The position numbers and the translations under genes are program-made. The notes beneath the pieces were generated by a model. That model did no database searches. It was given only the letters and a program-made list of their open reading frames with translations, and was not told the DNA's origin. From contig NC_043021.1 of the NCBI RefSeq assembly GCF_006345805.1, forward strand, positions 21,142,001 through 21,206,000: DNA of 64,000 nucleotides, read 5' to 3'. Positions 25,651 to 63,857 of the stretch are shown piece by piece. Numbering within the stretch: the first letter of the stretch is position 1; the number at the start of each line of letters is the position of its first letter. This DNA comes from Octopus sinensis. Taxonomy: Eukaryota.

Positions 25651-25892
25651 TATAGTTGAAGTGATGGGAAACAAAAAGACAAAAGGATACAGAAAATAAT
25701 GTAGTTAAACCTTAGTAGCACAGGCGTAGTTGTGTCATAAGACGCCTACTTCCTAACAACACATTTCTGGGTTCAGTCCCACTGGATGGCATGTTGGGCA
25801 AGTGTCTTCTACTGTAGTTTTAAGGCTGACCAAAGCCTTGTGAGTGGATTCTGAGACAGAAATAAGAGCCCATTATATATATATATATATAT

Positions 25893-27030
25893 AAATCAAT
25901 AAATGGTGGGGTTGTGTTGACCGCATGTGGAGAATGATAAGCAAAGAGAAAAATTGTAAAAAGGCAGAATGCTAAATTGAAAGAAAATTTTAATGAAAAT
26001 GGGTGTATGGAAAAATTTTGAAAAATTGATAAACTATACATATATTAATTCAAACTGGTTTTCATAATAATGTGACTTTTCAAGAATTGTAAAGAAAAAA
26101 AATTTTTTTTTAATGTGAGGAGGGGGAAAAAAGAAACTTGTTTTTTGTTTTTTTCAAAAAAATAATAATAATAATAAATATGTACAAAAATTAAAAAATA
26201 GGTACTCCGATACATTGTAAAGTCTTTGTGTATCTTGAATTTAATGACAGTTCACGAAAAAATTACCTTGAAGTATTGAGATCCAATGGGATTAAATCCA
26301 TGTGTTGTTTAATTCAATTAAGAGTGTCTCTTAAGTGGATGGCAAAACAGGAAGTAGTAATAGTCCAGTTCCTGTGTTGTGAATAAGGGGAGACAACTCT
26401 ATGGGTTTTAAGCTCTTCAATTTGTGTTTATCAATTTTTTGTAATAAAGGGTGTTAATAAACCTTAAATATAAAATTATTATTTTAGCTTCATTTGCATT
26501 ATCTTTTTTTATATAATTGTTTGCTGACTTAACATTCAGATTTAACAACACTTTATTTATATTGTTTTTTCTAATTATATAAATTTGCATAAACCAATTT
26601 ATAAATTACATTTCAGATTGTTATTTCATATATAACAACAACAATAATAATAATATAATATAATAATATTAAAGAATATAAGTTTTAGCTTGAAGTGATG
26701 ACTGCATGGTATCCTTATATATTTGTGTTAGTCCATCTGAAGAATGAGGTAGAAAAAGAAGTATGATCAACGAGGAGTTTGCATATTAAGATGGCGTTTT
26801 GATATTTTTCATAAAGGATCTCCTTGTTAATTCTCTCCTGTGTGGTGATTCCGTCTTTACATTGGTAGAAGGGGAATATGTAGAATTTGGATTTTTGTCT
26901 TTAGCGCATGAGTCTATGTGGTCACTCGTGGGATTTGCCGGTATTCCGGGAGATTTTATTTGTCTTTATGCACCGCTTCTCTTTTACGTAACGGAGGCTC
27001 GTTTGTCCAACATAATTATGTTGGTAACCA
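25893..27030 (-). mobile_element. Penelope-like element 3' end (GIY-YIG C-half + 3' UTR), cut by the assembly gap
   Basis: Near-identical to 34094-35455; GYQHNYVGQTS at the gap edge. Confidence 0.88.
26047..26088 (-). ncRNA. Candidate minimal type-I hammerhead ribozyme (U3-A8 variant), copy 1
   Basis: AAUUC-UUGAAAA-GUCAcauuaUUAU-GAAA-AccagU-UU-GAAUU; stem II and loop III carry mutations relative to copy 2. Confidence 0.5.
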
Positions 27031-27130
27031 NNNNNNNNNNNNNNNNNNNNNNNNNNNNNNNNNNNNNNNNNNNNNNNNNNNNNNNNNNNNNNNNNNNNNN
27101 NNNNNNNNNNNNNNNNNNNNNNNNNNNNNN
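27031..27130. other. Assembly gap (100 N)
   Basis: Run of N. Confidence 1.
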
Positions 27131-27422
27131 TGTCTTGCAAGTTACTTGGTGACCCTGCCAGTGCAGGTGCCACTTAGGGCATCAAGCTGTAAAAACCTTG
27201 TCAAAATTGACCTTGCCTGTGCTGGTGCTACGTAAAAAGCACTCAGTCCACTCTGCAGGGTGGTTGGTGTTAGGAAGGGCATCCAGCTGTAAAAACCATG
27301 CCAAAAGAAACACAGAAGTCTGGCCAGCTTCTAATAAACCATCCAACCCATGCCAGCATGGAAGGTGGACGTTAAAGGATGATGATATATATATATACAC
27401 ACACACAACACACACACACACA

Positions 27423-27634
27423 CATGAGATGGTGCTGAAAAGTTCCTGGTTTTGGGTAAAAGAAAATACAGGAGGATGAGTTAACTGTGATTTTGTTCGA
27501 CATATTCCCCTCTCAGATTCACACACTTATTGCGGCAGTTCTTCAGTTTTTCTGTAAAAGAACTCAGAAGATTGTGCTCCCAACCAGGCCTTTCACAATA
27601 CCCTTAAAGCCAGGGACTTTCAGTACCTCCTTAT
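27423..27634. mobile_element. Mariner-derived MITE
   Basis: Imperfect TIRs GGTGCTGAAAAGTTCCTGGTTTT / AAAGCCAGGGACTTTCAGTACC. Confidence 0.7.
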
Positions 27635-27844
27635 ACATGTGTTTATTTTTTTATGACTGTTTTTTTTTCTTGCTAGTATAGGTTAGACAAATGGATTACT
27701 GAGTCATTGAGGATTTCCTTTCTGTTATTAACCCTTGTTTTCCAAAGAAAATATATCTTATTTCTAATATTTTTAAAGGTAGGGGAAAATAACATCAAGG
27801 TTTCTGTCTGTAGCTGATCATTATTTGGAAATGTACAAAAATAA

Positions 27845-27875
<31 letters not shown>

Positions 27876-28584
27876 TGTGTAGACATGGTTGTGTGGTTGA
27901 GAAGTTTGCTTCACAACCTGATGGTTTTGGGTTCAGTCACACCGTGTGGAACCTTCAGTTAGTGTTTTCTGATATAGTCCTGGGACCAAAGCCTTATCGT
28001 ATGATTGGATGGTCGTGCATTGATGCTGATTAAACAGACTTGTGTTCAAGGGGCTGCAGCCCTAGTCATCCTGTTTTTTTTTCTTCTCTCTAGATAAAAT
28101 GCTTCCTCTAGAAATACATCATCCAATGTTTTTCTGTTTTAAGATAGAAATACATGATTTGAGAGACTTGGTTGTTATTTCTGGCAGCTCAAATGAACAC
28201 ACATTGGGTCATGTTTGTGTGTGTATGTGTACAGTGTACATGTGTGTTCATACATATGTGTGTGCGCATGTGTTATGATGAATGTGTGCTTATGTCTTTG
28301 TGAAAATAGAGACCATAACAGCATACGTAATATTATCCCCATTGGGGGGAATTACTTACATGTTAATATGTCATTAATTTTCCCCATTTTCATAAAATTC
28401 AAATATGGTTTATTTCTTATTTTTGTTTTTCAATTTTAATTTTGTAAGTGCTGTATTCTGTTTCTTCATCATTTGATATAAAACACCCCCTGAAGAGATT
28501 TCAAATGGCTTGATTCTGTAAAGCTATTATCTCAAATGCTCTAAACTGTCATAAAATAATTTTTCATCTTCTTCGACTATTGCC

Positions 28585-28617
<33 letters not shown>

Positions 28618-29804
28618 TCTTTTTGCTATAGGCAGAAGGCCTGAAATTGTAGAGTAGGGGCCTAGTCGATTATATCGACTCAACCAGTACTTATTTTATC
28701 AACCCTAAAATGATGAAAGACAAAGTTGACCTCGGTGAATAATGACAATAATAATGGTTTCAAATTTTGGCACAATGCCAGCAATGTGGGGGGGAGGGGG
28801 AAGTGATTACATCTCCCCACATCCCCAACGCTCAAATTGTACTTTGTTTTATCAACTTTGGAATGATGAAAGGCAAAATTGATGTTGGTGACATGAGAAC
28901 TAAGAACATGAAGAGCTGAAAGAAGTATTGCTAAGCCTTCTGTCTGTTTGTCACATTAATGGTTTCAAATTCTGGCACCAGGCCAGCAATTTTCAGTGCG
29001 GTGGTGATGGTGGTGGTGAGCAAGACAATTATGTTATCCCTAATACTTGATTGGTATTTTATCAGCCTCAAGAGGAGGAAAGGCAAAGTTTACCTAGGTA
29101 GGATTTGAACTCAGAACATAGTCAGAAGAAATATCTCAAAACAGTTTCTGATGTGCTAATGATTCTGCCAGCGAGCTGGCAAAAACCTTTATTCAGTTAC
29201 TTCATAATAAAAAGGATAAGGATAATACACAATCAGAAAACCCTGTCTAGCCAAGAAAATATATTACCTTACTTGGAAACAAGTGAGGCCTGACAAGATG
29301 AAGGGCATCTGGCTGTTGAAAATCTGCCTTGACAAATTGTGTCTGATCCATGGAAGCAAGGGAAACTGGGCATTAAATGAAGTTATATATCATCATCATC
29401 ATCGTTTAGCGTCCGCTTTCCATGCTAGCATGGGTTGGACGGTTCAACTGGGGTCTGGGAAGCCAGAAGGCTGCACCAGGCCCAGTGTGATCTGGCAATG
29501 TTTCTACGGCTGGATGCCCTTCCTAACGCCAACAACTACATGAGTGTAGTGGGTGCTTTTTACGTGCCAACGGCACAGGTGCCAGATGAGGCTGGCAAAC
29601 GGCCACAAACGGATGGTGCTTTTTACGTGCCACCGGCACGAGGCCAGTCAGGGCGGCGCTGGCAACGGCCACGTTCGGATGGTTCTCTTACGTTCCACCG
29701 GCACTGGTATCTCAGCTGCAATTTCCATTGATCGATTTCGATTCTGATTCTCACTTGTCTCAACAGGTCTTCACAAGTAGAGTTCTGTGTCACAAGTAGA
29801 GTTT

Positions 29805-29837
<33 letters not shown>

Positions 29838-29893
29838 GCACACATATATATAAATCAAAGTATACAATATTATATATCCATTATAGCCGATTT

Positions 29894-29971
29894 TACCAAC
29901 TGGTTTCACACTATGGGTTCAACAGAGTGTTAGGTAAATCCAATTATGTAACCCTGCACTCATCAGAGGTA
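29894..29971 (-). ncRNA. Candidate type-I hammerhead ribozyme with long stem II (decayed)
   Basis: UACCU-CUGAUGA-GUGCAGGGUU..AACCCAUAGUGU-GAAA-ccag-UU-GGUA. Confidence 0.55.
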
Positions 29972-30559
29972 GCCGTTAGGGAAATATGTATCCCATTGGT
30001 AGGCTGCTGGTATATAATCTTAGTTACTTAAGTGAAGTCTCTTTATTCTGATGGCCAAATGTATAGTGGTTAACACCTCTGTTACTGCTTATAGATGTGG
30101 CATTTGAATCCTTTGGGTGATATTACTTTTTTTCCATTTTTTTTTCTATTATGAATTTATATTAAACAATTTTAATGCTATGAAATCATATTTTACAATA
30201 TATTAACTGAATGGTTTATGTTATAGTAGGTTATTGCAAATAGAAATAGAATTTTAAGTAGTACTACATTTGTATAAGACATGCCGTTTTTTTGTATTTT
30301 TAATTGTATCAAAAAAATTACCTGCCTAACCCTAACCAAAACCCTGATGAGACAGCATTACAGATGGGAGATTGAGCATTGCAGGCTAGGGAGCTAAATG
30401 AGCATAAGTCTGATATGTGCAATAGTTGTTAATAATAGATAAAAGATATTGAAAACAAGCCAAAATATTACTATGTGTTTGTTCAAATGTATGAAACATT
30501 GTTTATGGTACATTGACATATATGTGGGAGCCACATCATCTCATTATACCGTCTTCCTC

Positions 30560-30961
30560 TCTCTTTACTCTTTTACTTGTTTCAGTCATTTGACTGCGGC
30601 CATGCTGGAGCACCACCTTTAGTCGAGCAAATCGACCCCGGGACTTATTCTTTGTAAGCCCAGTACTTATTCTATCGGTCTCTTTTGCCGAACCGCTAAG
30701 TGACGGGGACATAAACACACCAGCATCGGTTGTCAAGCAATGCTAGGGGGACAAACACAGGCACACACACACATACATATATATATATACATATATACGA
30801 CAGGCTTCTTTCAGTTTCCGTCTACCAAATCCACTCACAAGGCATTGGTCGGCCCGGGGCTATAGCAGAAGACACTTGCCCAAGATGCCACGCAGTGGGA
30901 CTGAACCCGGAACCATGTGGTTGGTTAGCAAGCTACTTACCACACAGCCACTCCTGCGCCT
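30560..30961 (-). mobile_element. SINE family A copy
   Basis: Full length, close to consensus. Confidence 0.9.
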
Positions 30962-31448
30962 CTGCATACATAATCAACACCTAATTTGAGTCATTCATTA
31001 TATAATGAATTTGTTGCTTCTGAGAAACTGTGTTTTGTTAATTGTCTAAATTAAAAATTCTAGAAAGATGAAATGAATGTTAAACTTTGATTTACCAGTC
31101 AGCTATTTGCAATGAGTGAATGACAGCAAAATCATTGTGGTGCTGTGACACCCTAGTGGCTGACCATAGTTACATAGAACATCAGAAGCAGAAACACAAG
31201 TTTTCATCTTATATCACAGTTCACTTGAACAAAATATAAACAACTATGCAGTTGAACTATGGTACTAATATATTCTTCAATTTGTTTCAGTCATTTGACT
31301 GCAGCCATGTTGGAACACCACCTTAAGGGGTTTTTTTTTAGGCGAACAAATCAACCCCAGGACTTATTCTTTATAAGCCTAGTACTTATTCTTTTGGTCT
31401 CTTTTGCCAAACTGGGGGGGGGGGACAAACATAGATACAAACACACAA

Positions 31449-31479
<31 letters not shown>

Positions 31480-32119
31480 CATACACACACACACATACAT
31501 GATGGGCTTCTTTCAATTTCCATCTACCAAATCCACTCTCAAGGCTTTGGTCTGCCCAAGGCTATGGTAGAAGACACTTGCCCAAGGTGCAATTAACTCG
31601 GAACCATGTTACCACACAGTCATCAATTTACGGTTTCATCATCATCATCGTTTAGCGTCCGCTTTCCATGCTGGCATGGGTTGGACGGTGCAACTGGGGT
31701 CTGGGAAGCCAGAAGGCTGCACCAGGCCCAGTCTGATCTGGCAGTGTTTCTATGGCTGGATGCCCTTCCTAACGCCAACCCTTATTCAACATTGTCACAT
31801 TATTGTACTTACTTGCACCGAATCATAAATTTTTCACTACAGAAATATTTTATGATGAAACACAAAATTCTTTTCCCTACAAAACATCCTTGTAAAATAG
31901 GGGTGCATCATCTTATGCAAGGGTGCATCTTCTATGATGGCAAATACGATAAATGGTTTTGTAGCAGTGTATATATTGCAATGAACAAGCAGAAACTAAA
32001 ATTTGAACTCAGAACCATGAAGTACTGAAATCATGCAATTCCTTCATTCTTTTTTCATATCAAAACTACTGTTTATAATCTAATAAAATTTTCTCCAGAC
32101 TCAGAGATTTCTGTCATCG

Positions 32120-32815
32120 TGTGTGTGTATATGAGTGAGCAAATGAGGGTGTGTGTGTGTGTATGCATATGCATGTCAGTGTGTAAATATGTATGTACAA
32201 TGTTGTGTGTGTGTGTACGTGTACATACACACAGATAAATATACTTGCATGTCCGTATGTGTATATACATATATAAATATATATGTATATAATTATATAT
32301 GCATGCTTGTATATAAGTATATATGTATGTATATATAAGCGTATATATGTATGTATATATATATATGTGTATATATGTATGTATATATATATATGTGTAT
32401 ATATGTATATATATATATATGTGTATATATGTATGTATATATATATATGTGTATATATGTGTATATATGTATGTATATATATATATGTGTATATATGTAT
32501 ACATATGTATATATATAAGTATATATGTGTACATATAAGTATATATATATAAGTATATATATGTGTGTTTGTGTGTGTATATATATATATATGTATATAT
32601 GTATGTATGTATGTATATATGTATGTATGTATGTATATATGTATGTATGTATGTATATATGTATGTATGTATGTATATATGTATGTATGTATATATGTAA
32701 GTATGTATGTATATATGTAAGTATGTATGTATATATGTATATGTATATATATAAGTATATATATATGTATATATATAAGCATATATGCATGCTTGTACAT
32801 AAGTATGCATTATAT
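32120..32815. repeat. Compound (TA)/(TG)/(TATG) microsatellite field
   Basis: Directly visible; similar fields at ~16680-17130 and ~22860-24290. Confidence 0.9.
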
Positions 32816-34257
32816 ACATTGTGGCATGTCACAATGTATTTTTTGTTTCATGAAAGTGAGAAGAAAACAAAACAAAAATGTAATTGCATCCTGATTAACT
32901 TGGTGACAGTATAAATTGTAGATGGAGCTAAATGGAGGGAGCTTCTGTTCCAATTTGCTCACTTCACATAAATGGAAACCAGACATTAATTCTACAGAGC
33001 CATGTGGTGAAAATTTGTGTGCAGTGAAGTATCGTTGAAAATATCTAAGAGTTAACCACTTAAGTCATAAAATGTCTAAGAACTTCAATTATGAAGTCAA
33101 GACTCTGTATGCTGAGATGTGCTGTGTTGCATCTTCCCTTCTTTGAAAATATATATTCATAAAAGCAACATGTCTATGTACGTAGTGGTGTGTGTTTTCC
33201 TTCTTTGCTTTTATTTTTTTCCTGCATATACCAGATAGTGAAATAATTTTTTTTTGTCTTCAAATTACATACATTTTGAATGAAAACAAAAAAAAGTGAG
33301 TTAATTTTCATAAAGTCTGAAAAATAAAAAGATGAAAATAAATAACTTCTTCGTTGAACTTGTTAAAACTTTAACAACTGATTGGCAGATATAGAAAGAC
33401 CAAAATAAAAAAATTTCAAAAAATAGGTATTAAAAAAAAAACTCACCATATCTAATGATTGAATTCTATTGCAGAAAATTGTTATATAATGATATAACAA
33501 AAAAGAAAAAAAACAAACTCAGGTAAAAAAAAAAATACTTGAAATATGACAATAATGAAAAGTGAAAGCAATCCATTGTAAATGTTATGTTATTTAAAAA
33601 AATGAAAAAATTCTCTCAATGAGGTTTACCTGAATACTATTGGGTAGAAAAACATCTTGAGATTTTCGGGTTGAGGCCCTTCATTTATGATGAATAAAGT
33701 TTGAGAAAAGATTAATGATCATCTCTGCCTTGCGGTAGCAGCTAATGATAGAGCTTGTGCATAAAGTAGATAGATCTGTCTTTGTCAGTTTGACTTGTTT
33801 AGTGAAGGAAGGTACAAGTTTGATCGTGTGGTTAAGAAGATTTGTTCATGGTCCCACATTTCCAGGTTCAACCCCACTACGTGTTACTATAAGTGTTCTT
33901 CTAATATAGCAATTCCTTATGAATGGAATTTGATAGATGGAAACTGTACAGAAGTTTATCATGTGTATATGTATATGTAACGACAAAAATAGAGGTAGAG
34001 AAAATCACATCTTTAATTGTAATTTGATGTATATTAGTGTGTATATATGTTTCTGTGCATGTAGCTGTAAGCAATATATATATATATATATATAAATCAA
34101 TAAATGGTGGGGTTGTGTTGACCGCATGTGGAGAAATGATAAGCAAGGAAAAATTGTAAAAAGGCGGAATGCTAAATTGAAAGAAAATTTTAATGGAAAT
34201 GGGTGTATGGAAAAATTTTTTTGAAAAATTGATAATATATATATATATATATATATT

Positions 34258-34300
34258 AATTCAAACCGGTTTTTCATCATAATGTGACTTTTCAAGAATT
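34258..34300 (-). ncRNA. Candidate minimal type-I hammerhead ribozyme (U3-A8 variant), copy 2
   Basis: AAUUC-UUGAAAA-GUCAcauuaUGAU-GAAA(A)-AccggU-UU-GAAUU, in the sense of the Penelope ORF, with palindromic loop CCGG. Confidence 0.6.
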
Positions 34301-34893
34301 GTAAAGAAAAAAATTTTTTAAAAGTGTGGACGGGGAAAAAGAAAATTACATTGTTTTTTGCAAAAAAATAATAATAAATATATACAAAAATTAAAAAATA
34401 GGTACTCCGATACATTGTAAAGTCTTCGTGTATCTTGAGTTTAATGATAGTTCACGAAAAAATTACCTTGAGGTATTGAGATCCAATGGGATTAAATCCA
34501 TGTTTTGTTTAATTTAACTAAGGGTGTCTCAAAACAAGAAGTAGTAGTAGTCCACTTCCTGTGTTGTGAATAAGGGGAGACAACTCTATGGGTTTTAAGC
34601 TCTTCAATTTGTGTTTATCATTTTTTGTAATAAAGGGTGTTAATAAACCTTAAATTATAAAATTATCATTTTAGCTTCATTTGCATTATTTTTTTTATAT
34701 AATTGTTTGCTAACTTAACATTCAGATTTTAACACTTTATTTATATTGTTTTCTAATTATATAAATTTGCATAAACCAATTCATAATTACATTTCAGATT
34801 GTTATGTCATATATAATAAAAATAATAATAATAATGATATTTAAAGAATATAAGTTTTAGCTTGAAGTGATGACTGCATGGTATCCTTATATA

Positions 34894-35127
34894 CAAGGTG
34901 GTGAGCTGGCAGAAACGTTAGCACGCCGGGCGAAATGCGTAGCCGTATTTCGTCAACCGCTACGTTCTGAGTTCAAATTCCGCCGAGGTCAACTTTGCCT
35001 TTCATCCTTTCGGGGTCGATAAGTTAAGTAGCAGTTACGCACTGAGGTCGATGTAATCGACTTAATCCGTTTGTCTGTCCTTGTTTGTCCTCTCTGTGTT
35101 TAGCCCCTTGTGGGTAGTAAAGAAATA
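34894..35127 (+). mobile_element. SINE family D with 14-bp TSD inside the Penelope 3' UTR
   Basis: TSD ggtatccttatata at 34880-34893 and 35128-35141; the empty site is present in the other Penelope copy (~26708). Confidence 0.95.
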
Positions 35128-37389
35128 GGTATCCTTATATATTTGTGTTAGTCCATCCATGAAGAATGAGGTAGAAAAAAGAAGTATGATCAATGAGGAG
35201 TTTGCATATTAAGATGCGTTTTGAATTTTTCAATAAAGGGATTCTCCTTGTTAATTCTCTCCTGTGTGGTGATTCCGTCTTTACATTGGTAGAAGGGAAT
35301 ATGTAGAATTTGGGATTTTTGTCTTTAGCGCATGAGTCTATGTGGTCACTCAGTGGGATTTGCTGGTATTCCGAGAGATTTATTTGTTATTTATGCACCG
35401 CTACTCTTTTACGTAACGGGAGGCTCGTTTGTACAACATAATTATGTTGGTAACCAGTGCATGTGAGAATGTAGATAAAGTTCTCGGAGGAACAGGAGAA
35501 GTTGGTCTTGATTTTAAACTTCGTTCCTTGTTTGAAGATAAATTCAGAGCCTTCAAGTAGGAAGGGGCAGGTGCCACAGTTTGGGTGTGCACATTTTTTA
35601 ACTGCTGGGGGTGGATGTGGTGTGTGAAGTTTGGCATTTGTCAAGAGTTTTTTTTAAGATTTGTGTTGCCTTTTACATTTGAGGATTTTGTGTGTATTTA
35701 TGTTTTTCATTTTTGGGTCTGTTGACAGTAGACTGAGGTTTTGTATGATTGTTGTGTATGCTTCGATATTTTTGGGGTTGTAGGTAGAAATGTATGGAAG
35801 TATTTTGGGGTTGTGTGTGGTGTTGGGTTGGGTGGTTTTCAGTGTAATGTTGTCTAGTTCTTTGGTGCATTTTATTCCATACTCTATAAGGGTGGAGGGA
35901 TATTGGCATTGTAATAGTGTTTTTTTGAGGTCTTGAAGGCGTATTTCTCGAGTTTTTGGAACCGAGACAATGGTGCATACCCTTTTAGCTAAGTTAAAAG
36001 GGATATTTGTCTTGGTGTGTTTTGGGTGGCATGAACTAAAGAGGAGGTATTGTTGTGAGTCTGTAGGTTTGTGGTAGATGTCTGTTATGATTTGGTTCTT
36101 AGGTGTTTTTATAATTAGGAGATCAAGGAAAGGGAGATGATGTTTGCTTAATTCCATAGTGAATTGGATGTTGGGATGTATGTTGTTCAGTATGGTTTTG
36201 AATTCCAGAAACTTTTCATAAGATTCTTTCCATATGATGAAACAATCATCCAAATACCTTTTCCAGTTTTCCATTAGGTAGGTGTGGAAAACATGTCCAA
36301 ATTTCTGGCGTGATATCTCATAGAGTGATAGTTCGAAGAAACCCATTATGAGGTTTGCAAGGACTGGCGCAAGCCTTGGTACCCATCGCAATACCACATT
36401 TTTGATGGTAGTGTGTGTTGTCGAAGAGGAAATAATTGTTTGTCAGAATGAACTTGAGTGTTCCGTAATAAAGGTCTTGTGAATGCGGTCAGGGAATGTC
36501 TCTGGGTGTTTTTCTAGCCAGAAATCAATTGCCTCAATACCATATTCATGTGGGATGTTGGTGTAGAGGTTGATGACATCAAAGGATACCAGGAGCGCCT
36601 CCTCGTTAACTGTTTTCGGGAGGTGTTTGAGCATGTCCAGATCATCCCTAATGAAACTTTTGATGTGGGTAAGGAAAGGTTTCAAAAGGATGTCTAGGAA
36701 ATTACTCAGGCGGTGATATATATATATAATATATATATATATATAGGTAGATAGGTATGTATAAAGGGGCTCTGTAAAGTGTGACACATAACCAATGATT
36801 GGGTTCAGTGGCTAGTGTAGTATGGCATGTATTTATTGTGGGACACTGATCAGTGGAAGTGCACAATGGCCTAAAATTTCTAAAACCTATGTAATTATTT
36901 CAGAATTTTGATGAAACCTGTATAGCATTAAATACCAAACCTGTTTTCTGCTTATTATGTGTTTGTGTGCATATATTTATGTGTGTATGTATGCAAAATT
37001 CAGGGTTAAGAAGTTTGCCCACTCAATTCAATTATCATGGTCTTGATTTTCATTTAGAGAGTATCCAATAATGATATAAGCCATTTTAGAACAATATTAA
37101 TATATATTTTAACGGCATAGACAAACGTGGAAGGAAAGAGCTCATTACTCTTCAAATGGCCCCCAAGACTGCTGGGAAGAGAGGGAAGGAGGAAGTTATT
37201 CTCCGATGAGAGATCTGGCCTGAATGCTTACAACAGAGTGAATTCTGCTGAAAGTACCTGAGAGTCAGGTGTTATTAAACCAGGTAACAGAATCTAGAGG
37301 GTATTAGATAAAGAAATGAGATTATATGATGCACAACCTATGTCACTGAGGAGCATTATCAATGCACTGAAGGCAGACATGGTAGACTT

Positions 37390-37801
37390 GGTGAGCTGGC
37401 AGAAACGTTAGCACGCCGGGCGAAATGTGTAGCTGTATTTTGTCTGCCGTTATGTTCTGAGTTCAAATTCCACCGAGGTCGACTTTGCCCTTCATCCTTT
37501 CGGGGTCGATAAATTAAGTACCAGTTACGCACTGGGGTCGATGTAATCAACTCAATCCGTTTGCCTGTCCTTGTTTGTCCCTCTCTATGTTTAGCCCCTT
37601 GTGGGCAGTAAAGAAATAAGTATTTCGTCTGCCGCTACGTTCTGAGTTCAAATTCCGCCGAGGTTGACTTTGCCCTTCATCCATTCGGGGTCGATAAATT
37701 AAGTACCAGTTACGCACTGGGGTCGATGTAATCGACTTAATCCGTTTGTCTGTCCTTGTTTGTCCTCTCTGTGTTTAGCCCCTTGTGGGTAGTAAAGAAA
37801 C
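37390..37801 (+). mobile_element. SINE family D dimer with TSD
   Basis: TSD catggtagacttggt at 37378-37392 and 37802-37816; the second unit starts at ~37621. Confidence 0.9.
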
Positions 37802-40194: not shown

Positions 40195-40225
<31 letters not shown>

Positions 40226-49321: not shown

Positions 49322-49382
49322 GGGATTACCTTAGGTTTCTCGTCCATAAAAGGTTTAGTTTTATGGAGTATCGTCAGATCCC
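49322..49382 (-). ncRNA. Candidate type-I hammerhead ribozyme enclosed by a 14-bp inverted repeat
   Basis: GGGAU-CUGACGA-UACUCCAUAAAA cuaaacc UUUUAUGGACGA-GAAA-CCuaaGG-UA-AUCCC. Confidence 0.72.
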
Positions 49383-51669: not shown

Positions 51670-51712
<43 letters not shown>

Positions 51713-52815: not shown

Positions 52816-52850
<35 letters not shown>

Positions 52851-53640: not shown

Positions 53641-53664
53641 TGCTTTGATTAAAAGGTTACAGTA

Positions 53665-54150
53665 TAGATTAGATTACTTAGATAAGTTTCGGCCGAAGTT
53701 GACTCAGGCCATGTCTAATTTAATAGCACCACCTGGAAGAAATACACAGTCAGCTCTGGGGAACCGTAGCCCATTCAAGCAGAGGGTTATTGTTTCCAAA
53801 GACATATCTGGATGTGGGTGGTTTATCTGGTATTTGTTGGGGGTAATCATCTAGGGATTGTTTGAATGCCGTGAAGTTACTTTTCTCCTTTATGCGTGTC
53901 TGGCATGATGCTGAAGAGAGCAGGGCCATTTGAGGTGAAATAGTTCTGTCATAGTTTTGTGATATGACATGAACATTTCTGTAGTGGATGGATGGCAGGG
54001 GGAAGCCTTGGACAAATTTTAAAGATGGGCATTGTTGATGGAATATTTTCCACATCATACAGATGATATAGAGCTCACAGCGGCAGTGAAGGGAGCAAAG
54101 CCTGAGCTTTTTGAGTCGATCCCAATAGTCAAGGCTTGTCATGTCATCCT
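53665..54150 (-). mobile_element. CR1/L2-group LINE 3' end (third family)
   Basis: LDYWDRLKKLRLCSLHCRCELYIICMMWKI..AFKQSLDDYPQQIPDKP, followed by a short (AATCT)-like tail. Confidence 0.8.
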
Positions 54151-54152
54151 CC

Positions 54153-54530
54153 GCAGACCTCCACCAAGCAGCTCTTTTTAGGATAGATACACAAATAAAA
54201 TTACTAACAGAGAAACGAAAATAAACTTTGGCAACAGCAACACCACCATAGGTTATGTGGAAACGATGAACGTGTTTTCAAGTGAGTTAATCAAAGAATG
54301 TAACATTGTAATACTTCATATAAAGTAAATATAACAAATGAAAAATCCTTCCCAGATCTCTACCAAAATTTCATCATCTGTTCCTTGTGTCATTACCAAC
54401 TTTTCCTGTAAGTTTCATCAAATACCGTTCACAACATTTTGAGCTATTTTACACACAGGCACATAGACAGACAGAGGGACAGACGGACAAACCAATGCCG
54501 ATGAAACCTCCTTCTTTGGTGGAGGTAATA
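54153..54530 (-). mobile_element. Helentron-associated (DINE-1/HINE-like) non-autonomous element; distal end probably at 53045-53087
   Basis: Minus strand begins TTATTACCTCCACCAAAG, has a (GTCT)-rich tract and an inverted subterminal CTTGGTGGAGG; the distal piece ends ..CCTAG|TT. Confidence 0.6.
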
Positions 54531-55452
54531 AAAAAAATGTCCACAAGTGTTAGACATGTAGAATTCAAAAAAGTGCCGAAGGCACTTTTGGAAAAAATCT
54601 TGTGGGGGACAAGGCATTATGCATATGTTAGAAATCATTATTAAAGTGGTGTTTTGAATAGAATTTAATCAAAGATTTTCGAGTATAAATTATGAAAGAT
54701 GAAAGGTTTTAATTTACATAGGAACAATTCATAATTGGTAGTTTTGTAATCATTAAACCGGAGGTGGTCTTATGTGGATTGGCATCAAGAAAGTCAAATG
54801 CTTTAGTCTTTAGAGTTGTTATTCAGACCATATTTAGAATCTAGTTTATTTCATTTCAATGTATATGAAAAGTCATCAAGAAATAGACAGGTTTTTTTTT
54901 TGGTTTTTTAGTTTTAATTTGTTTTTTTTATTTATTTCTGTTCATTTGTTTCCAGTTTTAAAAAATTTCTTTCATTTCTTCATTCTTCCTATAACTCATT
55001 TTTCATTGTTTATTCTCTCTTTTTGTTCTTTCTTACATATATATGAGTGTATGTATAAACAATATATATAAAAGTAGGTATCACTATAAATTTTTGAAAG
55101 TTATTACAAGGTAATTTCTGCTGTACTTTTTCTTGGAGAACATCCAAAAAGAAACATTTGGATACCCCGTTTATGAAATTTAGATGAATGTTTTAGGAAA
55201 TATGACAATTTGAATGATCAATGAAATTGTTGAAATTTTACCTAATTTGTGTAAATGAATAAGTAGCTATGTATTATATATTATCAGGCGGGGTGCCACA
55301 ATTAACACATTAACTGAAAAAAACCCCACAAAATATTCTCCAATTCTTTGCCTGTCCATAAACAATTAAGATTGCAGCAGGTATTAATGATATTCTAACT
55401 GAAAATTCATCAGGTGTTGTCCATTTGTTGTCCCTTGCAACTGAGGATATTA

Positions 55453-55608
55453 CTCCTTACTCCTTTACTCCTTTATTTGTTTCAGTCATTTGACTGCGGC
55501 CATGCTGGAGCACCGCCTTTAGTCGAGCAAATCGACCCTGGTACTTATTCTTTGTAAGCCCAGTACTTATTCTATCGGTCTCTTTTTGCCGAACCGCTAA
55601 GTGACGGG
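55453..55608 (-). mobile_element. SINE family A, 5'-truncated tail fragment
   Basis: Tail only. Confidence 0.88.
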
Positions 55609-55921
55609 ATTTATTGTTCATAAATTGAAAAATTTCAGTTCAACTTTTAAATCTGTGAACCCATCAGCTGTTGTTGGATTTGTCACCATTCCCACTGCCA
55701 ACTTATATCACATTGACTTTTATCAAATCTGGTGTCCTCAAAACAGTTGAACTTGAACAGCAAAGATTAAAAAGTGTATTATATGACTTAAATGAAATCA
55801 TATGAAACTTAAATTCTACATTTGGGTTCATGGACAGTTTCCTGGCACCAATGAATTGCTAAAGACCATAAAAAAATGAGTAGGAAAGGTGCATCATATA
55901 TCACATAAGATATATGTTTAA

Positions 55922-56140
55922 CCCTTTAGTATTTAAACCGGCCATATCTGGCCAAAATATTTCATCTGTTTTATGTTCAAACTGACCAGATCCAGGCTCT
56001 CACACCTACCCTACAATGTTATTCTACATTAGGTAATTACACCATCAAGATCTTGAACATATGAGATAATGCATGATTAATTCAAATCAATGTGAATCAA
56101 TAAGCATTATGTTTGATAGAATAATCAGAACACTAAAGGG
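55922..56140. mobile_element. TTAA MITE (piggyBac-like ends)
   Basis: TTAA|CCCTTTAG..CTAAAGGG|TTAA; reverse orientation to 24998-25219. Confidence 0.9.
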
Positions 56141-58963
56141 TTAACAAGTTATGTGATGGGCATCATGTCACTTCTGACACCACTATAATGCAGCTTTGTT
56201 GCAATTTTCTTGTTTACAGTTATTTTGATATAAATCTTGATGGTGGTTGGCTAGATAATCGTTACGGAAAAGTGAAAATCAGCATTTGTGAAAATGTTAA
56301 CATTACAACAAAAAATATCTGACTGTATTCAAAATCAGGGAAAAGACATATTTAAAAAAAATTACATAGGTCTTTCATGGCCTACAAAATAATTCATTGG
56401 ACAATATGATTTTTATTGATGAATATAAACCAATATTTCTCTAATACTGTGGCTGTCTCCAATTTATGGTGTTCTATAGTGATACCTAATAAAAGCAATA
56501 CATTGCTGTATATTTGGATCAAAATTCAGCCTTGGTAAATAGTTTCAGGCTGTAGCCACTTATTGAATTAATAAAAGATATAAAAGATAAATAATTTAAT
56601 TTCATATATTTTTTACTTTTTTTCAATACCCCACCCCACCCCTCCATCTTTTATCTGTCTTGAGTTTGTTTCTATCTTCAAGCAGTGCATTTAACACCTT
56701 CAAAAGGCATTTAACTCTGTTTGCCCAAGGCTTTATGTTTAATAGAGAAAAATTGTTAATTAAAATTTTAATTGTGGTAGTGATGACTATAGTGGTGTTA
56801 TTAAATTTTTTGAAAATTCTTTGAGATTTTATGTCAAGACAAACTCACAATACTCTAGTGATTTTACCATGGATTCCAGTACAGTGGATTTCACTTAGTT
56901 TCATTAAAGATCATATCTTTCATGTCATCGTTCAACCCCAAGACAGTGCTGATCAAGCAAGCTTATGATCAGAAGCATTTTAACCATCACCATCCTGTAA
57001 TTTTATTTCAGGACTAAGTTATTTAATGTATCCTCATTTGTATTAATAAATTCTCTTTCTGAGGTAATTTTTGTTTCATTTAATGTTAAGATAGTGGGGG
57101 GGGGGGTTGTCTACAAAATATGTGTATGGTTCCTTTGATTTTCGGAAAATTGTATAATGGGTTCCACATCAAAATAAATTTTGGAATCAGTGCTAACTAT
57201 CTATAAATATTTTGTAGATAAAAATAAAGACAAGACACTGCTAACACAAAAGTCAGACACAATACTGACTTGTAAAACTTTATTACACTTGTTGATATAT
57301 CATGGTTGCAACATGAAATATTGGGTCCTTGTTAGCTATTAACGTTTAAGTCCTAACATTATCACACTCAATAAGAAGCTTCACATTGATAACTCAATCT
57401 GCTAAAGATGGCCAAATTTTCCTCAAATAGCATTCTGAAAGTAAAAAAGGACACATTTTGGTAATGTAGTTCTGGATAGATAATTTAAATTTTGGCACAA
57501 GGTTAGCAGTTTTTTAGGGGCTGAGGCAAGTCGATTATATCAACCCCGATACTTGGCTGGTATTATATTTTATTGACTGCAACAGGATGAACAGTAAAGT
57601 TGATCTTGGTGGCATCTGAACTCAGAATGTCAAGCCAGAAGAAATGTTGCTAAGTGTTTTGTCTGACACAATAACAATTCTACCAGCTTACTGTCTTAGT
57701 CCTGGATATATAGATAAGATGGATGATCACGGCTATGATGTCTTTGAATATAGACAAACTTAATCATAACTGAATAACAACAATAATGGTATTTCCAGAG
57801 AAAAAAAAGTAAAATTATTTGAAAATTTCCATCAAAAATAAATAGACTAAAAGGCCAAGGCAAAATACAAAACAATCAACAATCACTAAAACATTCAGAT
57901 TCCATGACCCGGAGGGAGCTTTGATGTGGCTTTTAAGATGTCTGAGTATCAACATTTTGATTTTAACTTCATCTTTTAATCTATTTGATGGTTACAACCT
58001 CACTTAAATGTTCTTTTATGGATTGATGTTGTTTGCTCAGAGACACAGACAGCGAACAAAAGTTTATTTTAATGCTGTGTTTTACGGACATAATGGTTTC
58101 ATTACTTAGACTAAACATTCCTGTTTATAGCTGTTAAGTGATGTCACACACCGTTCAGAGGTGGCGAGTTGTCGTCATCATCATCGAACGTATGGGTTGG
58201 ACTGTTTGACAGGATCCAACAAGTCACAAGACTCTATTAAGAACCAATGTCATCTTTTACATAGTTTCTATGGCTAGATACCCTTCCTCATGCCAACCAC
58301 TTTTTAGAGTCTGCTGGTTGCATTTTCACTGCTACCAACTCCAGTGTTGTCACCAACTAACTTGCAAGACAAAAAGAAAAAGCTCTTTCGACTGAGTGTG
58401 GTGGTGGTGGTGGATGTATATGAGTGATGGGGAAGTGGCTTTATGCCAGGTTTTCGAATGTTCGAGTATGATAGAGGGATGAGTACAGGTTGTCTCACGA
58501 TAGAGGAGAAACATGGCTACTCAGCATTTAGGGTGGTTGTGTGTAACCGGAAAGAAGATAGAGATTGTGGTACCGAACCGAGGTGCCAGAGTGAATGCTC
58601 AAGGTACAAGTGAGCACAAGAGAGAACCCAGAGAGTGGATCAAGGGGAAGAGAGTGTGGGGAGTGAGTTACAGCTAGCCAGAAATGGGGATGGAAGAGAA
58701 TGTAGTGAGTGAAAATATGATTGATGAGAAATATTGATCTGGAGAGAGAAGATAAGATGAGAAGGACAGAAGTGGCTCAGGAAGGAGGATATATCAGAAA
58801 GTAGAGGGATGATGAGCAAGGTGATGTACAGTGGCAGAGATGGAGGTCAGAAGTACACAAGGGTTTTCTGTAATAAATGGGGTGACTGTGGTGGAAGGTG
58901 GCATCAATGGCAGATATGAGAGAGTTTAGTTAATGAAAGCAGATATGAGGAGTGTTAAAGATA

Positions 58964-59130
58964 AGGTGGCAAGCTGGTAGAATTGTTAGTATGTTGGGTG
59001 AAATGCTTAGTGGCATTTCGTCCATTTTTATGTTCTGAGTTCAAATTCTGCTGAGGCCGACTTAGCATTTCATTCTTTTGGGGTTGATAAAATAAGTACC
59101 AGTAGAATACTGGAGTTGATGTAATTGAAC
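58964..59130 (+). mobile_element. SINE family D, diverged copy
   Basis: GGTGGCAAGCTGGTAGAA..GAGTTCAAATTC..AAGTACCAG. Confidence 0.75.
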
Positions 59131-60097
59131 TTAACTACTCTGCTGAGCCATGTTGAACCAGAGTGACAGAATAAGCTCATCAAACCAGTATCATCTCAAG
59201 CTCAAATTCATGGCCTCCACATCAGACTATGGTTGGTGAAGAAGAAAACATGCTGAGGCCTCGTTTTGCAGTAAACTGAACATGGGCAACCCAATCCAAA
59301 GAAGATGAGGTATGCCAGGTCTAAGATGTAGCTCAGAAGAGAGGGAAATATAATTGAAGGTGCAGAAAAGGGATGATTGGTGAAGAATTCTGTGCGTAGG
59401 AATGAGAGTGAGGAATGGATATTAATAGAAAGTGGTTCCAATGTGAGATGATAGTGTTACTTAACCCGAGGTCTTCTCTGATTGAGCAAACTTATGTTCA
59501 AAGGTATTCTGTGTCTTCCCTGGACAGGGTTTCCCAACGTCTCAGGCAGCCGGGGGTATTTGTCTCCCCTTCGTAAATGTATATAAGGACACAGGAAAAA
59601 TGTGTCAAAGCCATCAGGAGGCGTCGATGCTTCCTAGGGCTAAACAGCGGTGGTGAACCCCCCTACTGTCACGTTCATGTTAGATTGATAGTATACAACC
59701 CTTCTATCGTCCCACCACCGTACATGTCTCTATGAGAGATTTAGAAATTTAGTATTTCTGATTTATATAACTGTCACGTATCAATAACTAGTAATTATCA
59801 TTGTCTTAACATGTTGACTGTTTATAAATTAGCTGCTAAAAAGATATTTATGCATTTGTTGCTTTAATTCCACGTTAGTTCTAATTAGACTAACCATTAA
59901 CTGAAAAACGTCCCAGTTAGGACCAGCCTGATTTATTTCCATGCACAGAGGACAACATTATTTACTGCATCCTTTTTGTTTTTTTTTTAAGATAATAAGG
60001 TTGAGATTGAAGTGGTATTTAACTTCAGTTTCTGGCAGGACAAGTAACTATGTAGAGAAACCCTCATTGTGTTGTGTTTGTAAATTAGTGTGACTGG

Positions 60098-60441
60098 GCC
60101 CGATGCCAGTGCTGCCTCGACTGGCTTCTGTGCCGGTGGCACATAAAAAGCACCATCCGAACGTGGCCGATGCCAGCGCTGCCTTGGCTGGCTTCCGTGC
60201 CGGTGGCACGTTAAAAGCACCAACCGATCGTGGCTGATGCCGGACTCCCCTGGCACCTGTGCCGGTGGCACGTAAAAAGCACCCACTACACTCACAGAGT
60301 GGTTGGCGTTAGGAAGGGCATCCAGCTGTAGAAACACTGCCAGATCAGACTGGAGCCTGGTGCAGCCCCTGGCTTCCCAGACCCTGGTCGAACCGTCCAA
60401 CCTGTGCTAGCGCGGAAAACGGACATTAAACGATGATGATG
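60098..60441 (+). mobile_element. Family C (RTE 3'-UTR-type) element with three internal GCCGGTGGCAC...AAAAGCACC subrepeats
   Basis: Ends AAACGATGATGATG; probable TSD tgtg(a/g)ctggg. Confidence 0.85.
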
Positions 60442-60681
60442 TGGCTGGGGGCACTTGCTCTGCTTCTAAATTGTATGCCCCGTTGAATGTGTGCTTCTTC
60501 TCTTATATCATTAACTGCTTATCACTTTAAACCAGAGATTAAATGATTTAATTTTTCCTGTTGTGTAGTATTTAGTGAATGTTGCGCTCGATCTGATATG
60601 AAACCAGCTAATCATGTTTAGAATGTGTCTTGAAAGAAACTTGTGTTTGAATCAGCATTGAAACATCAAAAGTTCAAACAT

Positions 60682-60800
60682 CGGGTTCAGTCCCACTGCG
60701 TGGCATCTTGGGCAAGTGTCTTCTGCTATAGCCCCGGGCCGACCAATGCCTTGTGAGTGGATTTGGTAGACGGAAACTGAAAGAAGCCTGTCGTATATAT

Positions 60801-60832
<32 letters not shown>

Positions 60833-61033
60833 CTGTATGTGTTTGTCCCCCTAGCATTGCTTGACAATCGATGCTGGTGTGTTTACGTCCCCGTCACTTA
60901 GCGGTTCGGCAAAAGAGACCGATAGAATAAGTACTGGGCTTACAAAGAATAAGTCCCAGGGTCGATTTGCTCGACTAAAGGTGGTGCTCCAGCATGGCCG
61001 CAGTCAAATGACTGAAACAAGTAAAAGAGAGTA
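60682..61033 (+). mobile_element. SINE family A, 5'-truncated
   Basis: Starts at the B box. Confidence 0.9.
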
Positions 61034-61299
61034 AATGTTTCTTCTGTAATAAAAGAGCCAGTAGATGTAGTGTGTTAGTGAATGAGTCAGTCTTTGACAA
61101 TCAATCTAATAGTTTTTCTCACTACATAGTCTAGTATGTTTATGTGTGTGTGTGTGTGTGGTAGCAGCAATGTTTTAGTTACTAAACCCCCTTCTCTTTC
61201 TTGGTTTAATGAGGATGAGAAGATGCTTTCAATAAGATCAACACCAGTGCTTGGCTGATATTTTATTCACCCTGCCAATTTTGTGTGGCTAGCCACATT

Positions 61300-61530
61300 C
61301 TCCATTCAGCTGATCAATGGTACTTGAAAACAGCCATGACTTGGGGACCACCTGTCGGAGAGTGTAAAAGGGATAGGCTGAAAATCACATGGTGGCAGGC
61401 ATTTCTTGATAACTGACCCGAAGACAGTCAACATTATGTAGCATGAAGGAGCAAAAGTAGCAGCTGACCAAAACCAGGGGAAGAAGCTTGCCATCCAATG
61501 TGCTGAGTAGCATAAGAAGCTTAAGCTAAA
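61300..61530 (+). mobile_element. RTE LINE C-terminal remnant
   Basis: KTAMTWGPPVGECKRDRLKITWWQAF..VAADQNQGKKLAIQCAE resembles RTE W.P.G.RKRGRPK.TW..DR..W. Confidence 0.65.
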
Positions 61531-61597
61531 AAGAAAAAAGGCCAGAAATGTGAAAGTATATTCAACCAGAAGTGTACATGTGAGTAACAGCAACAGT

Positions 61598-61793
61598 GTG
61601 GAGGCACAGTGGCCCAGTGGTTAGGGCAGTGGACTCACGGTTGTAAGAACGCAGTTTCGATTCCCAGACCGGGCATTGTGAGTGTTTATTAAGCAAAACA
61701 CCTAAGCTCCACAAGGCTCCGGTGGGGTGGGGGTGGTGAACCTCACTGTACCCTTTCACCACAACTTTCTCTGACTCTTTCTTCCTATTTCTG
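61598..61793 (+). mobile_element. SINE family B, 3'-truncated diverged copy
   Basis: Head matches 1819-2010. Confidence 0.85.
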
Positions 61794-62596
61794 CCACAAA
61801 GCAGAGGAACCATGGTGTGGCCCACTATGGTGTGGTAAACTTTCAGACCCTAGTCTAGATTGCGAATCCTCTGTACCCCAGGATGGTTCAGCTCTCCACC
61901 CATTAAAAGCCATCGTTTATGGAGTGTGGATAACAATGTAACTTTTTGTGCCCGTGCAACTGCCAGTCTATCGCATGTGGTGGGTGGATCTTCAAGTTGC
62001 CGCACACATTCTTAGTAGCTTAGCGTAGGCTCGAATTAGAGATTATTCTTTGTGGCTAATGGCATGAGTCCTGATTAGAAGAAGACAGCAACAGTGGTCC
62101 CAGATAACTGAGCAATACTTCCATATGAGTCACATGAGTATTTTATTCAAGATTGGCAATTGATCAGAGTGGAAATATATTTTGGTCCAGAAAACTCTAT
62201 TGACATTATCCCATCACCTCTTCATAACATTAATGCATGAAGGTGCTGCTGTGCTACATATTTGGCATAGCTTCTGAAGCTGGGTGTTTTTCCTAACACC
62301 AACCACTTATCATGAGTGGACTGGGAACATTGTATCATAGCACCGGTACTAAAGAGCTTGTCTTCTCAGTCATACATTGTTTCTATTCATTCACCAAACA
62401 CTTGGCAGTGTACACTACCTTTTGTCATGATAACGGCGCAATCAATTACATCAGTTCCACTACTGGTCTGGTATTTTATTTTATTGAACACATAAAGAAG
62501 AGAGACATAGTCAACCCTGCTTGGATTTGAACCTAGACTTTAGATAGATAATAGTAAATATTGCATGCCATTTGTATGGCATTTTAGCAGTTTCAA

Positions 62597-62975
62597 GAGT
62601 GGGTGTGTGGTAAGTAGCTTGCTAACCAGCCACATGGTTCCGGGTTCAGTCCCACTGCGTGGCATCTTGGGCAAGTGTCTTCTGCTATTGTCTCGGGCCG
62701 ACCAATGCCTTGTGAGTGAATTTGGTAGACGGAAACTGAAAGAAGCCTGTCGTATATATGCATGTGTGTGTGTTTGTGTGTCTGTGTTTGTCCCCCTCGC
62801 ATTGCTTGACAACCGATGCTGGTGTGTTTACGTCCCTGTCACTTAGCGGTTCGGCAAAAGAGACCGATAGAATAAGTACTGGGCTTACAAAGAATAAGTC
62901 CCAAGGTCGATTTGATCGACTAAAGGCGGTGCTCCAGCATGGCCGCAGTCAAATGACTGAAACAAGTAAAAGAGT
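62597..62975 (+). mobile_element. SINE family A copy
   Basis: Near full length. Confidence 0.9.
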
Positions 62976-63293
62976 AATACTTTTGATTATGAGCTGTCTT
63001 GTTTATGCAACAACATCTTCTTGCTCCTTCATTCCATAAAATGTCGACTGTGTTCAGGTCATCAGGAAATTCCTGCCACCGAGATCGTGAGATCATGGTT
63101 TCAATTCCTAGACAGGGTGATGTATTGTGTTCTTAAGCAAAACATTTCATCTCACATTGCTTTGCGATCACTTCGACACCTGATGTGTGGCACACAATGC
63201 ACCCACTCAGGCACACACATTTGATCACTGTAAACAATTCATTTGTGCAGGTCATTCGGCAAATGCTCATATGTCATCTTTGAAAGGAGAGTT

Positions 63294-63335
<42 letters not shown>

Positions 63336-63338
<3 letters not shown>

Positions 63339-63837
63339 ATCAATATAGGGTGGCAAAAAATTTTGTAGAATTTTTTTGCCACCAGCGGCCTAGTGGGAAA
63401 AAATTAAATAGTCATAGACCATTTTTAAGTTCAACATCAACAATCAAGGAACGGCCATAATAGGCCATTCACCCACTAGAAATAACAGCCAAAGCTTCAA
63501 CCGCAAATAAAAATCAATTCCGTAAACCAGGAGAAAATCTTCCATAGGCCCTCAGATTCTTCAGTAAGAAATAGCCTATTTCTTAGGCTATTTCTTACTG
63601 AAGGCTATTTCTTACTGAAGAATCTGAGGGCCTATGGAAGATTGGCTTGATTTAATTTAATCAGGTTAGTTTACCATTAAACAGCAGATGAAACGGTGCA
63701 TCGTATAAGAAATTACAGGGTAAATGTTTTTTAAATTTTCTCCTGGTTTACGGAATTGATTTTTATTTGCGGTTGAAGCTTTGGCTGTTATTTCTAGTGG
63801 GTGAATGGCCTATTATGGCCGTTCCTTGATTGTTGAT
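63336..63837. mobile_element. (TA)n-flanked fold-back element carrying a hammerhead ribozyme; probable Penelope-like pseudo-LTR insertion
   Basis: Inverted arms 63436-63538/63735-63837 and 63536-63577/63602-63643. Confidence 0.7.
63607..63713 (+). ncRNA. Type-I hammerhead ribozyme with intact core and long stem II
   Basis: Stem I AUUUCUUA/UAAGAAAU; CUGAAGA (63615-63621); stem II AUCUG/CAGAU; GAAA (63690-63693); stem III CGG-ugca-UCG; predicted cleavage after GUA at 63705. Confidence 0.85.
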
Positions 63838-63857
63838 ATATATATATATATATATAT

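What the first reader, a model, noticed from the sequence alone, without database searches (positions are those of the whole stretch)
25873..63857. Window-level system: several unrelated ribozyme-bearing retroelements homing to (TA)n tracts
Seen: five hammerhead motifs from four non-homologous contexts in 64 kb. The Penelope copy at 34094-36713 and the fold-back element at 63336-63837 have (TA)n on both sides, the copy at 25893 begins in the (TA)n that follows a SINE A head, and the 29.9-kb motif follows a (TA)n. Inference: SINE A spreads microsatellite landing pads that ribozyme-carrying Penelope-type elements then target, implying a large unannotated population of self-cleaving RNAs in this genome that could cut host pre-mRNAs when in sense.
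Basis: inference. Interest (0 to 1): 0.75.

Follow-up and report, generated by a model that had tools for sequence, protein, structure and literature searches.

The report
Penelope-element hammerheads landing in TA repeats
Four different families of Penelope-type jumping genes here carry hammerhead-shaped RNA motifs, predicted to cut themselves, and mostly end in TA repeats, which is known behaviour for such elements; in the one subclass counted genome-wide most motifs have a swapped core base pair that standard searches would miss, while the SINE supplies only a small share of the landing sites and cutting of host RNA is untested.

Summary
The observation largely holds. Five type I hammerhead motifs from four repeat families lie in the window; one is intact, four are decayed. 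Family A is a Neptune-type Penelope-like element (PLE), family B a Hydra-type PLE, family D a young 490-bp tandem non-coding element (retrozyme type), and family C has PLE architecture but no coding partner found. Element 3' ends abut (TA)4+ in 104 of 160 cases against 2.6% background. Intact motifs occur 6 times in 800 kb of evenly sampled genome against 0.05 per shuffle, roughly 20,000 genome-wide. One stem-III class gives 7,095 exact matches (control 144): 5,241 with U3-A8, 1,143 with A3-U8, only 100 with the canonical C3-G8. The SINE landing-pad idea is weak: SINE A's inner microsatellite borders 7 of 103 termini against 126 of 1,428 background tract sides. Cleavage, expression and intron strand bias are untested. 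PLE hammerheads, their abundance and (TA)n targeting are published; the dominance of swapped cores, and A3-U8 in particular, is the possibly new part.

The parts
34094..36715 (-). Family A: 5'-truncated Neptune-type PLE copy (RT thumb, CX4CX2C linker, GIY-YIG; ORF broken by stops and a frameshift), 3' UTR and ~45-nt tail, (TA)n on both sides
   Evidence: intact relative L125 gives RVT_1 E 9e-8 and GIY-YIG E 0.002, below cut-off
34258..34300 (-). Family A hammerhead with U3-A8 core; this copy decayed (G-U at the base of stem II, extra A in stem III)
34894..35129 (+). Younger SINE inserted into the family A copy, with a target duplication of about 13 bp
25893..27030 (-). Second family A copy (3' UTR and end of GIY-YIG), 89% like the first, cut by an N gap
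26047..26088 (-). Family A hammerhead, decayed (stem II mismatch, stem III palindrome broken)
25717..25873 (+). tRNA-like head half of SINE A; the family A copy sits in its inner (TA)n at 25874-25893
   Evidence: tRNA-like reading from A/B-box resemblance, recalled
29847..29983 (-). Family B: short 3' fragment of a Hydra-type PLE; hammerhead at 29890-29972 with C3-G8 core and long stem II, decayed in stems I and II; (TA)n at 29807-29836
   Evidence: CxCX5C linker upstream in L106
49304..49465 (-). Family C: fold-back 3' fragment (inverted tail plus direct copy); hammerhead at 49322-49382 with C3-G8 core, base of stem II imperfect
63336..63837 (+). Family D: head-to-head fold-back of a 490-bp tandem non-coding unit, (TA)n at 63298-63335 and 63836-63857
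63607..63713 (+). Intact type I hammerhead: stem I 8 bp, C3-G8 core, 68-nt stem II, self-complementary stem III, predicted cut after 63705
   Evidence: hammerhead fold -29.2 against minimum -30.7 kcal/mol

Best explanation
The window holds copies of four distinct repeat families that each carry a type I hammerhead motif near a 3' end that usually abuts (TA)n; two families are Penelope-like retroelements, and the other two are likely their non-coding passengers. Likely mechanism: the GIY-YIG endonuclease of an autonomous Neptune- or Hydra-type element nicks a (TA)n tract, its RT primes there on the element RNA, and incomplete or fold-back copying leaves 5'-truncated, inverted or tandem copies with one of two 3' ends (with or without a 45-65-nt tail). 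The hammerhead would release the element RNA from a tandem precursor, probably as a dimer through its palindromic stem III, and is kept under selection in active lineages while single genomic copies decay. Any (TA)n serves; they occur about once per kb and SINE A supplies about a tenth of them.
For: Shown: RT and GIY-YIG with CX4CX2C linker in A; CxCX5C linker and CxxC in B-linked L106, matching the Hydra definition in PMC8557442 section 11. Two 3' ends and inversions in all four families. 3' ends at (TA)4+: A 37 of 46, B 18 of 34, C 23 of 52, D 26 of 28; background 2.6%. A 5' ends or breaks at (TA)4+ in 11 of 29, at 11 different element positions, which favours target over tail. In 30 loci picked by motif alone, position 3 and 8 were left free yet paired in 30 of 30 (U-A 20, A-U 9, G-C 1), 19 of 30 had PLE coding sequence upstream in sense, and 26 of 30 had (TA)5 within 170 nt downstream against 11.8% background. 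Strict scan 6 hits in 800 kb against 0.05 per shuffle over 20 shuffles. Known: PLE hammerheads and dimer dependence (PMC4209133); (TA)n bias of Neptune, Naiad and Hydra (PMC8557442).
Against: No cleavage or expression was measured. No coding partner was found for C (0 of 30 loci with tblastn hits to the A protein within 1.5 kb) or D (2 overlapping loci of 30, the RT lying about 1 kb away beyond a (TA)n); that query also missed the Hydra ORF in B, so the C blank is weak. D 5' ends met (TA)4+ in only 2 of 13 rows (two rows are internal folds). Loci were the top-scoring hits, not random copies, and related copies are not independent events. Target duplications cannot be read inside (TA)n. Clade assignment rests on motifs, not a tree.
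Confidence: 0.85

Rival explanations
1. SINE A spreads the (TA)n pads, and the ribozyme elements depend on or prefer them.
For: 104 SINE A heads in 800 kb, 50 with an inner (TA)4+. About 6 distinct loci of 165 show a SINE A split by an element (L011, L033, L042, L073, L078/L089, L085). Two of the five window copies touch a SINE A microsatellite.
Against: Inner SINE A microsatellite beyond 7 of 103 termini against 126 of 1,428 background sides (p = 0.59); any SINE A contact 18 of 103 against 201 of 1,428 (p = 0.38); SINE outer ends 9 of 103 against 69 of 1,428 (p = 0.10). Tracts born in SINEs too old to align would be missed.
Confidence: 0.07
2. The (TA)n is made by the elements: added as a tail during reverse transcription or expanded afterwards from their AT-rich ends.
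For: All four families end in short TA-like letters that could seed slippage.
Against: (TA)n also meets 5' truncation points at many positions; insertions split pre-existing SINE microsatellites; some ends meet (CA)n, (CT)n or (ATC)n instead. Some lengthening after insertion is not excluded.
Confidence: 0.08
3. A host-level system: sense-oriented intronic copies cut pre-mRNAs often enough to shape gene expression.
For: Roughly 20,000 intact motifs by extrapolation; D copies are nearly all intact (29 of 29 loci, overlapping) and often tandem, so they could dimerise in one transcript. Xenopus retrozymes are depleted from introns (bioRxiv 10.64898/2026.07.22.740005), which fits a cost.
Against: Four of five window motifs are decayed; B intact in 7 of 29 and C in 10 of 29 of even the best-matching loci. 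Minimal PLE hammerheads showed no monomer cleavage and low dimer cleavage in vitro (PMC4209133). No strand test was possible.
Confidence: 0.1
4. The motifs are chance matches in AT-rich repeats.
For: Four window motifs fail the strict scan; three of the five fold no better than shuffles.
Against: 7,095 against 144 reversed-pattern matches; 6,484 of 7,095 carry one of three Watson-Crick 3-8 pairs against 19 of 144 controls; 72 of 74 exact family A matches are U3-A8.
Confidence: 0.01

Closest known systems
Neptune-clade PLEs (PMC8557442; find passages read)
   Same: Single ORF with RT, CX2-5CxxC linker, C-terminal GIY-YIG with CCHH; partial tandems, inversions, optional tail; microsatellite targeting; hammerhead in the 3' repeat
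   Different: Family A's hammerhead has a U3-A8 core; clade not tested by tree (Nematis shares the linker)
Hydra-clade PLEs (PMC8557442 section 11, read)
   Same: Family B: CxCX5C linker, CxxC near the end of the endonuclease, canonical-core hammerhead, (TA)n insertions; clade already known from molluscs
   Different: Only one decayed coding copy examined in full (L106) and a piece in L108; RWK and DKT motifs not seen
Metazoan non-LTR retrozymes (PMC7229834, passages; bioRxiv 10.64898/2026.07.22.740005, part 1 of 5 and passages)
   Same: Family D: non-coding tandem unit with one type I hammerhead per unit
   Different: Unit of 490 bp with a 68-nt stem II; dispersed short arrays with PLE-style inversions, two 3' ends and (TA)n flanks; circular RNA not shown
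Minimal PLE hammerheads with U3-A8 core (PMC4209133, parts 1-2 of 4 read; PMC3088659, passages)
   Same: Type I, short palindromic stem III, thousands per genome, U3-A8 covariation (about 1,300 in Schistosoma)
   Different: Here swapped cores are about 90% of one class, and A3-U8 (1,143 matches) and one G3-C8 case occur; these two were not in the passages read

Membership tests
EN+ Penelope-like element (family A) | RT plus C-terminal GIY-YIG in one ORF | tested here: met
   782-aa frame in L125; RVT_1 above cut-off, GIY-YIG E 0.002 below cut-off; window copy 88% identical
EN+ Penelope-like element (family A) | Optional 3' tail, partial tandems and inversions | tested here: met
   two 3' ends about 48 nt apart; inverted and tandem pieces
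Neptune clade (family A) | CX2-5CxxC linker and CCHH motif | tested here: met
   CX4CX2C, two further Cys and two His in the L125 translation
Neptune clade (family A) | Groups with Neptune, not Nematis, in an RT tree | not tested
   no named reference RTs were fetched
Hydra clade (family B) | CxCX5C linker, CxxC near the endonuclease end | tested here: met
   L106 translation, broken frames; L108 piece
Hydra clade (family B) | RWK and DKT motifs in RT; tree position | not tested
   outside the fetched flank
Type I hammerhead | Core with 3-8 pair, GAAA, UH, stems I-III | tested here: met
   intact at 63607-63713; family-level in A 26 of 29, B 7 of 29, C 10 of 29, D 29 of 29 loci; 3-8 covariation
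Type I hammerhead | Self-cleavage after position 17 | not testable with these tools
   needs in vitro transcription or end-mapped RNA
Non-LTR retrozyme (family D) | Non-coding tandem unit, hammerhead in each unit | tested here: met
   490-bp period; longest frame 47 aa
Non-LTR retrozyme (family D) | Expressed as monomeric linear and circular RNA | tested here: inconclusive
   only contigs of runs not on record as RNA
PLE derivative (family C) | Linked to a PLE ORF | tested here: inconclusive
   architecture fits; no hit to the family A protein in 30 loci, a query that also missed B's ORF

The most novel reading that the evidence does not exclude
This genome's PLEs have repeatedly swapped the hammerhead 3-8 core pair: at least four pairings (C-G, U-A, A-U, one G-C) occur in families linked to RT, with canonical cores near 1% of one large class. 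If A3-U8 ribozymes cleave, this is a natural core variant in over a thousand copies that CUGANGA searches miss, PLE families called ribozyme-less may need re-screening, and tens of thousands of motifs give a ready test of selection against sense-strand ribozymes in long introns.
Probability: 0.4. Interest if true: 0.55.

Novelty: new variant of a known kind. Interest (0 to 1): 0.4.

Why it matters
It places a large, mostly search-invisible set of hammerhead motifs in one animal genome and offers natural covariation across the catalytic core, useful for descriptors and for asking why PLEs keep a ribozyme. The family range from intact tandem (D) to decayed single copies (B, C) makes the intron strand-bias question directly testable once an annotation is laid over it. 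The headline system itself, ribozyme-bearing PLEs in (TA)n, is already described.

Tried and rejected
Rfam scan: microsatellite hairpins fill the best 150 of 358 rows; no hammerhead among those shown. A first candidate motif in family A's 3' UTR (plus-strand position near 34590) was rejected: no intact-core version in the genome (0 matches); the real motif lies about 330 nt further 3'. The plus-strand core-like word at 26737 has no stems and is antisense. Pfam found nothing in the two window RT pieces. Sequencing runs: no RNA holder listed on record; contigs of four runs cover the D unit in pieces with no end at the predicted cut, which contigs cannot show anyway. Host gene: 107 of 111 open frames plus known repeats scanned (105 from the list and two added), none above Pfam cut-off; a read lay over 44.5-64 kb gave no result, so gene and strand stay unknown. 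Earlier scan notes: none. Lunse et al. 2017 on PLE hammerhead variants is not held and may already describe A3-U8. Searches for print: 'hammerhead' with 'A3-U8' 0 papers; with 'C3-G8', 'natural', 'variant' 2 papers; 'octopus hammerhead ribozyme' 7 listed, none on this; a 2026 octopus repeat annotation has 0 occurrences of 'ribozyme' (PMC13282606, passages). In one search L108 was read on the wrong strand; one search has the right one. Supplements of all papers were not opened and may list such cores.
Full report
Setting. The window is G000:C25:21142001-21206000 in a 2.72-Gb animal genome. Its main SINE looks like that of octopuses; this is recalled and comes from no call. (TA)6+ runs occur 0.95 per kb in the window and 0.96 per kb in 80 evenly spaced 10-kb samples, so TA neighbours must be judged against a high background.

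Observation. A structure-aware scan found one intact type I hammerhead, at 63607-63713 (+), and none in 100 window shuffles. Its hammerhead fold is 1.5 kcal/mol above the minimum. Four more motifs emerged from family alignments: 29890-29972 and 49322-49382 (minus strand, canonical core, damaged stems), and 26047-26088 and 34258-34300 in the two Penelope copies (U3-A8 core, damaged). The four families share no significant DNA similarity beyond one 26-nt AT-rich match. Each is a repeat: 1,706, 1,431, 1,746 and 859 first-look candidates for A, B, C and D, and 633 exact matches to a 32-nt piece of D.

What the families are. A encodes RT, a CX4CX2C linker and GIY-YIG; intact 782-aa frames exist elsewhere, which fits Neptune by motif. 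B copies extend upstream into a broken ORF with a CxCX5C linker and CxxC, the Hydra signature of PMC8557442 section 11, where almost all families insert into (TA)n. D is a 490-bp unit without ORF in tandem and head-to-head arrays, with a 71-76% relative at L183: a retrozyme-type element. C shows only a short 3' part with inversion and two ends; no partner was found. All four have two alternative 3' ends and fold-backs, the PLE pattern described in PMC8557442 and PMC3846280 (passages).

(TA)n termini. Of 160 de-duplicated 3' ends, 104 meet (TA)4+ within 6 nt (A 37 of 46, B 18 of 34, C 23 of 52, D 26 of 28), against 6,042 of 228,160 random positions. The counts include window copies and, for C, several internal breaks. 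Older families score lower, and many misses meet a decayed TA run or another microsatellite. For A, 11 of 29 5' ends or breaks also meet (TA)4+, at 11 different positions; for D only 2 of 13 rows do. An independent set chosen by motif alone had (TA)5 within 170 nt downstream in 26 of 30 loci (in L250 the run is internal) against 11.8%. Targeting is the better reading than a tail, but empty sites were not examined.

SINE landing pads. SINE A carries an inner microsatellite: 50 of 104 heads in 800 kb are followed by (TA)4+. Insertions into it happen: about 6 distinct loci among 165. But the inner microsatellite lies beyond 7 of 103 termini against 126 of 1,428 background sides (p = 0.59), so there is no preference and SINE A gives about a tenth of tracts. 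SINE A also abuts (TA)n at its own outer ends (69 of 1,428 sides), so it may share the target rather than only supply it (inference).

Size of the population. The strict scan gave 6 hits with a Watson-Crick 3-8 pair at 5 loci in 800 kb, all from families other than A-D except the D relative, plus one non-paired hit; allowing a 3-bp stem I gave 8. Twenty shuffles gave 0.05 on average. By hand this scales to about 20,000-27,000 genome-wide, with a Poisson range of about 7,500-54,000. A genome-wide pattern for one minimal class, with positions 3 and 8 free, gave 7,095 matches against 144 for the reversed pattern: 5,241 U3-A8, 1,143 A3-U8 and 100 C3-G8; controls 11, 7 and 1. In the first 30 loci all 30 paired at 3-8, and 19 had PLE coding sequence upstream in sense. 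These are copies of a handful of families, not independent events, and some have weak stems; yet swaps between families point to selection on the pair. This class is not the whole set: in the 800-kb sample 5 of 8 paired hits were canonical.

How it likely works. Shown: the anatomy, the covariation, the TA contacts. Inferred from known PLE biology: endonuclease nicking of (TA)n, target-primed reverse transcription, mobilisation of C and D in trans, and dimeric self-cleavage that frees element RNA from tandem transcripts. PMC4209133 (parts 1-2 read) reports no monomer and low dimer activity for minimal PLE hammerheads; PMC7229834 (passages) reports efficient dimers and circular RNAs for retrozymes. 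Cutting of host pre-mRNA is plausible mainly for intact tandem D arrays and is untested: no host exon was found and no RNA evidence was usable.

Novelty and verdict. PLE hammerheads in thousands per genome, U3-A8 cores (PMC4209133; PMC3088659 passages), (TA)n targeting (PMC8557442) and retrozymes as PLE derivatives (bioRxiv 10.64898/2026.07.22.740005) are in print. My searches found no report of A3-U8 cores or of hammerheads in this animal group's PLEs, but one key paper could not be read. Verdict: real feature, known kind, with a possibly new core variant; the SINE part of the claim is not supported. Interest 0.4.

Noticed in passing
G000 genome-wide; L244-L246, L254, L256-L257, L260-L264, L267: A very abundant young PLE family (about 50% aa identity to A) with a U3-A8 hammerhead and only a 3-bp stem I dominates the listed matches of the minimal class.
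   Followed up: partly
L247:1500: A G3-C8 core downstream of a PLE ORF remnant; single case, stem II imperfect.
   Followed up: no
L220:1094: Hammerhead-like motif with unpaired C3/C8, followed by a long (TA)n; may be a decayed copy or another core variant.
   Followed up: no
listing, e.g. G000:C1:182078659-182079400: A further tandem family with a period near 360 bp, canonical core and frequent head-to-head inversions: another retrozyme-type element.
   Followed up: no
L165:820, L180:3562-4002, L181:9798, L204, L233:5058: Five more unrelated hammerhead families in 800 kb of sampled genome, several with long AT-rich stem II inserts.
   Followed up: partly
window 34894-35129 and 37435-37800: A second SINE type, inserted into the Penelope copy with a target duplication of about 13 bp, and present as a 185-bp tandem pair further on.
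   Followed up: no
L033-L036, L052, L123: Some family A 3' ends are followed by (CT)n or (CTAT)n before (TA)n, continuing the element's last letters: possibly slippage at priming.
   Followed up: no
window 6084-6556, 8111-9354, 32256-32787: A 19-bp G+C-rich minisatellite (25 copies) and long 34-38-bp and 6-8-bp TA/TG-derived arrays.
   Followed up: no
L161:3696-5399: A long open PLE frame at 58% identity to A, about 1 kb from a D fold-back and separated by (TA)n: clustering in tracts rather than linkage.
   Followed up: partly
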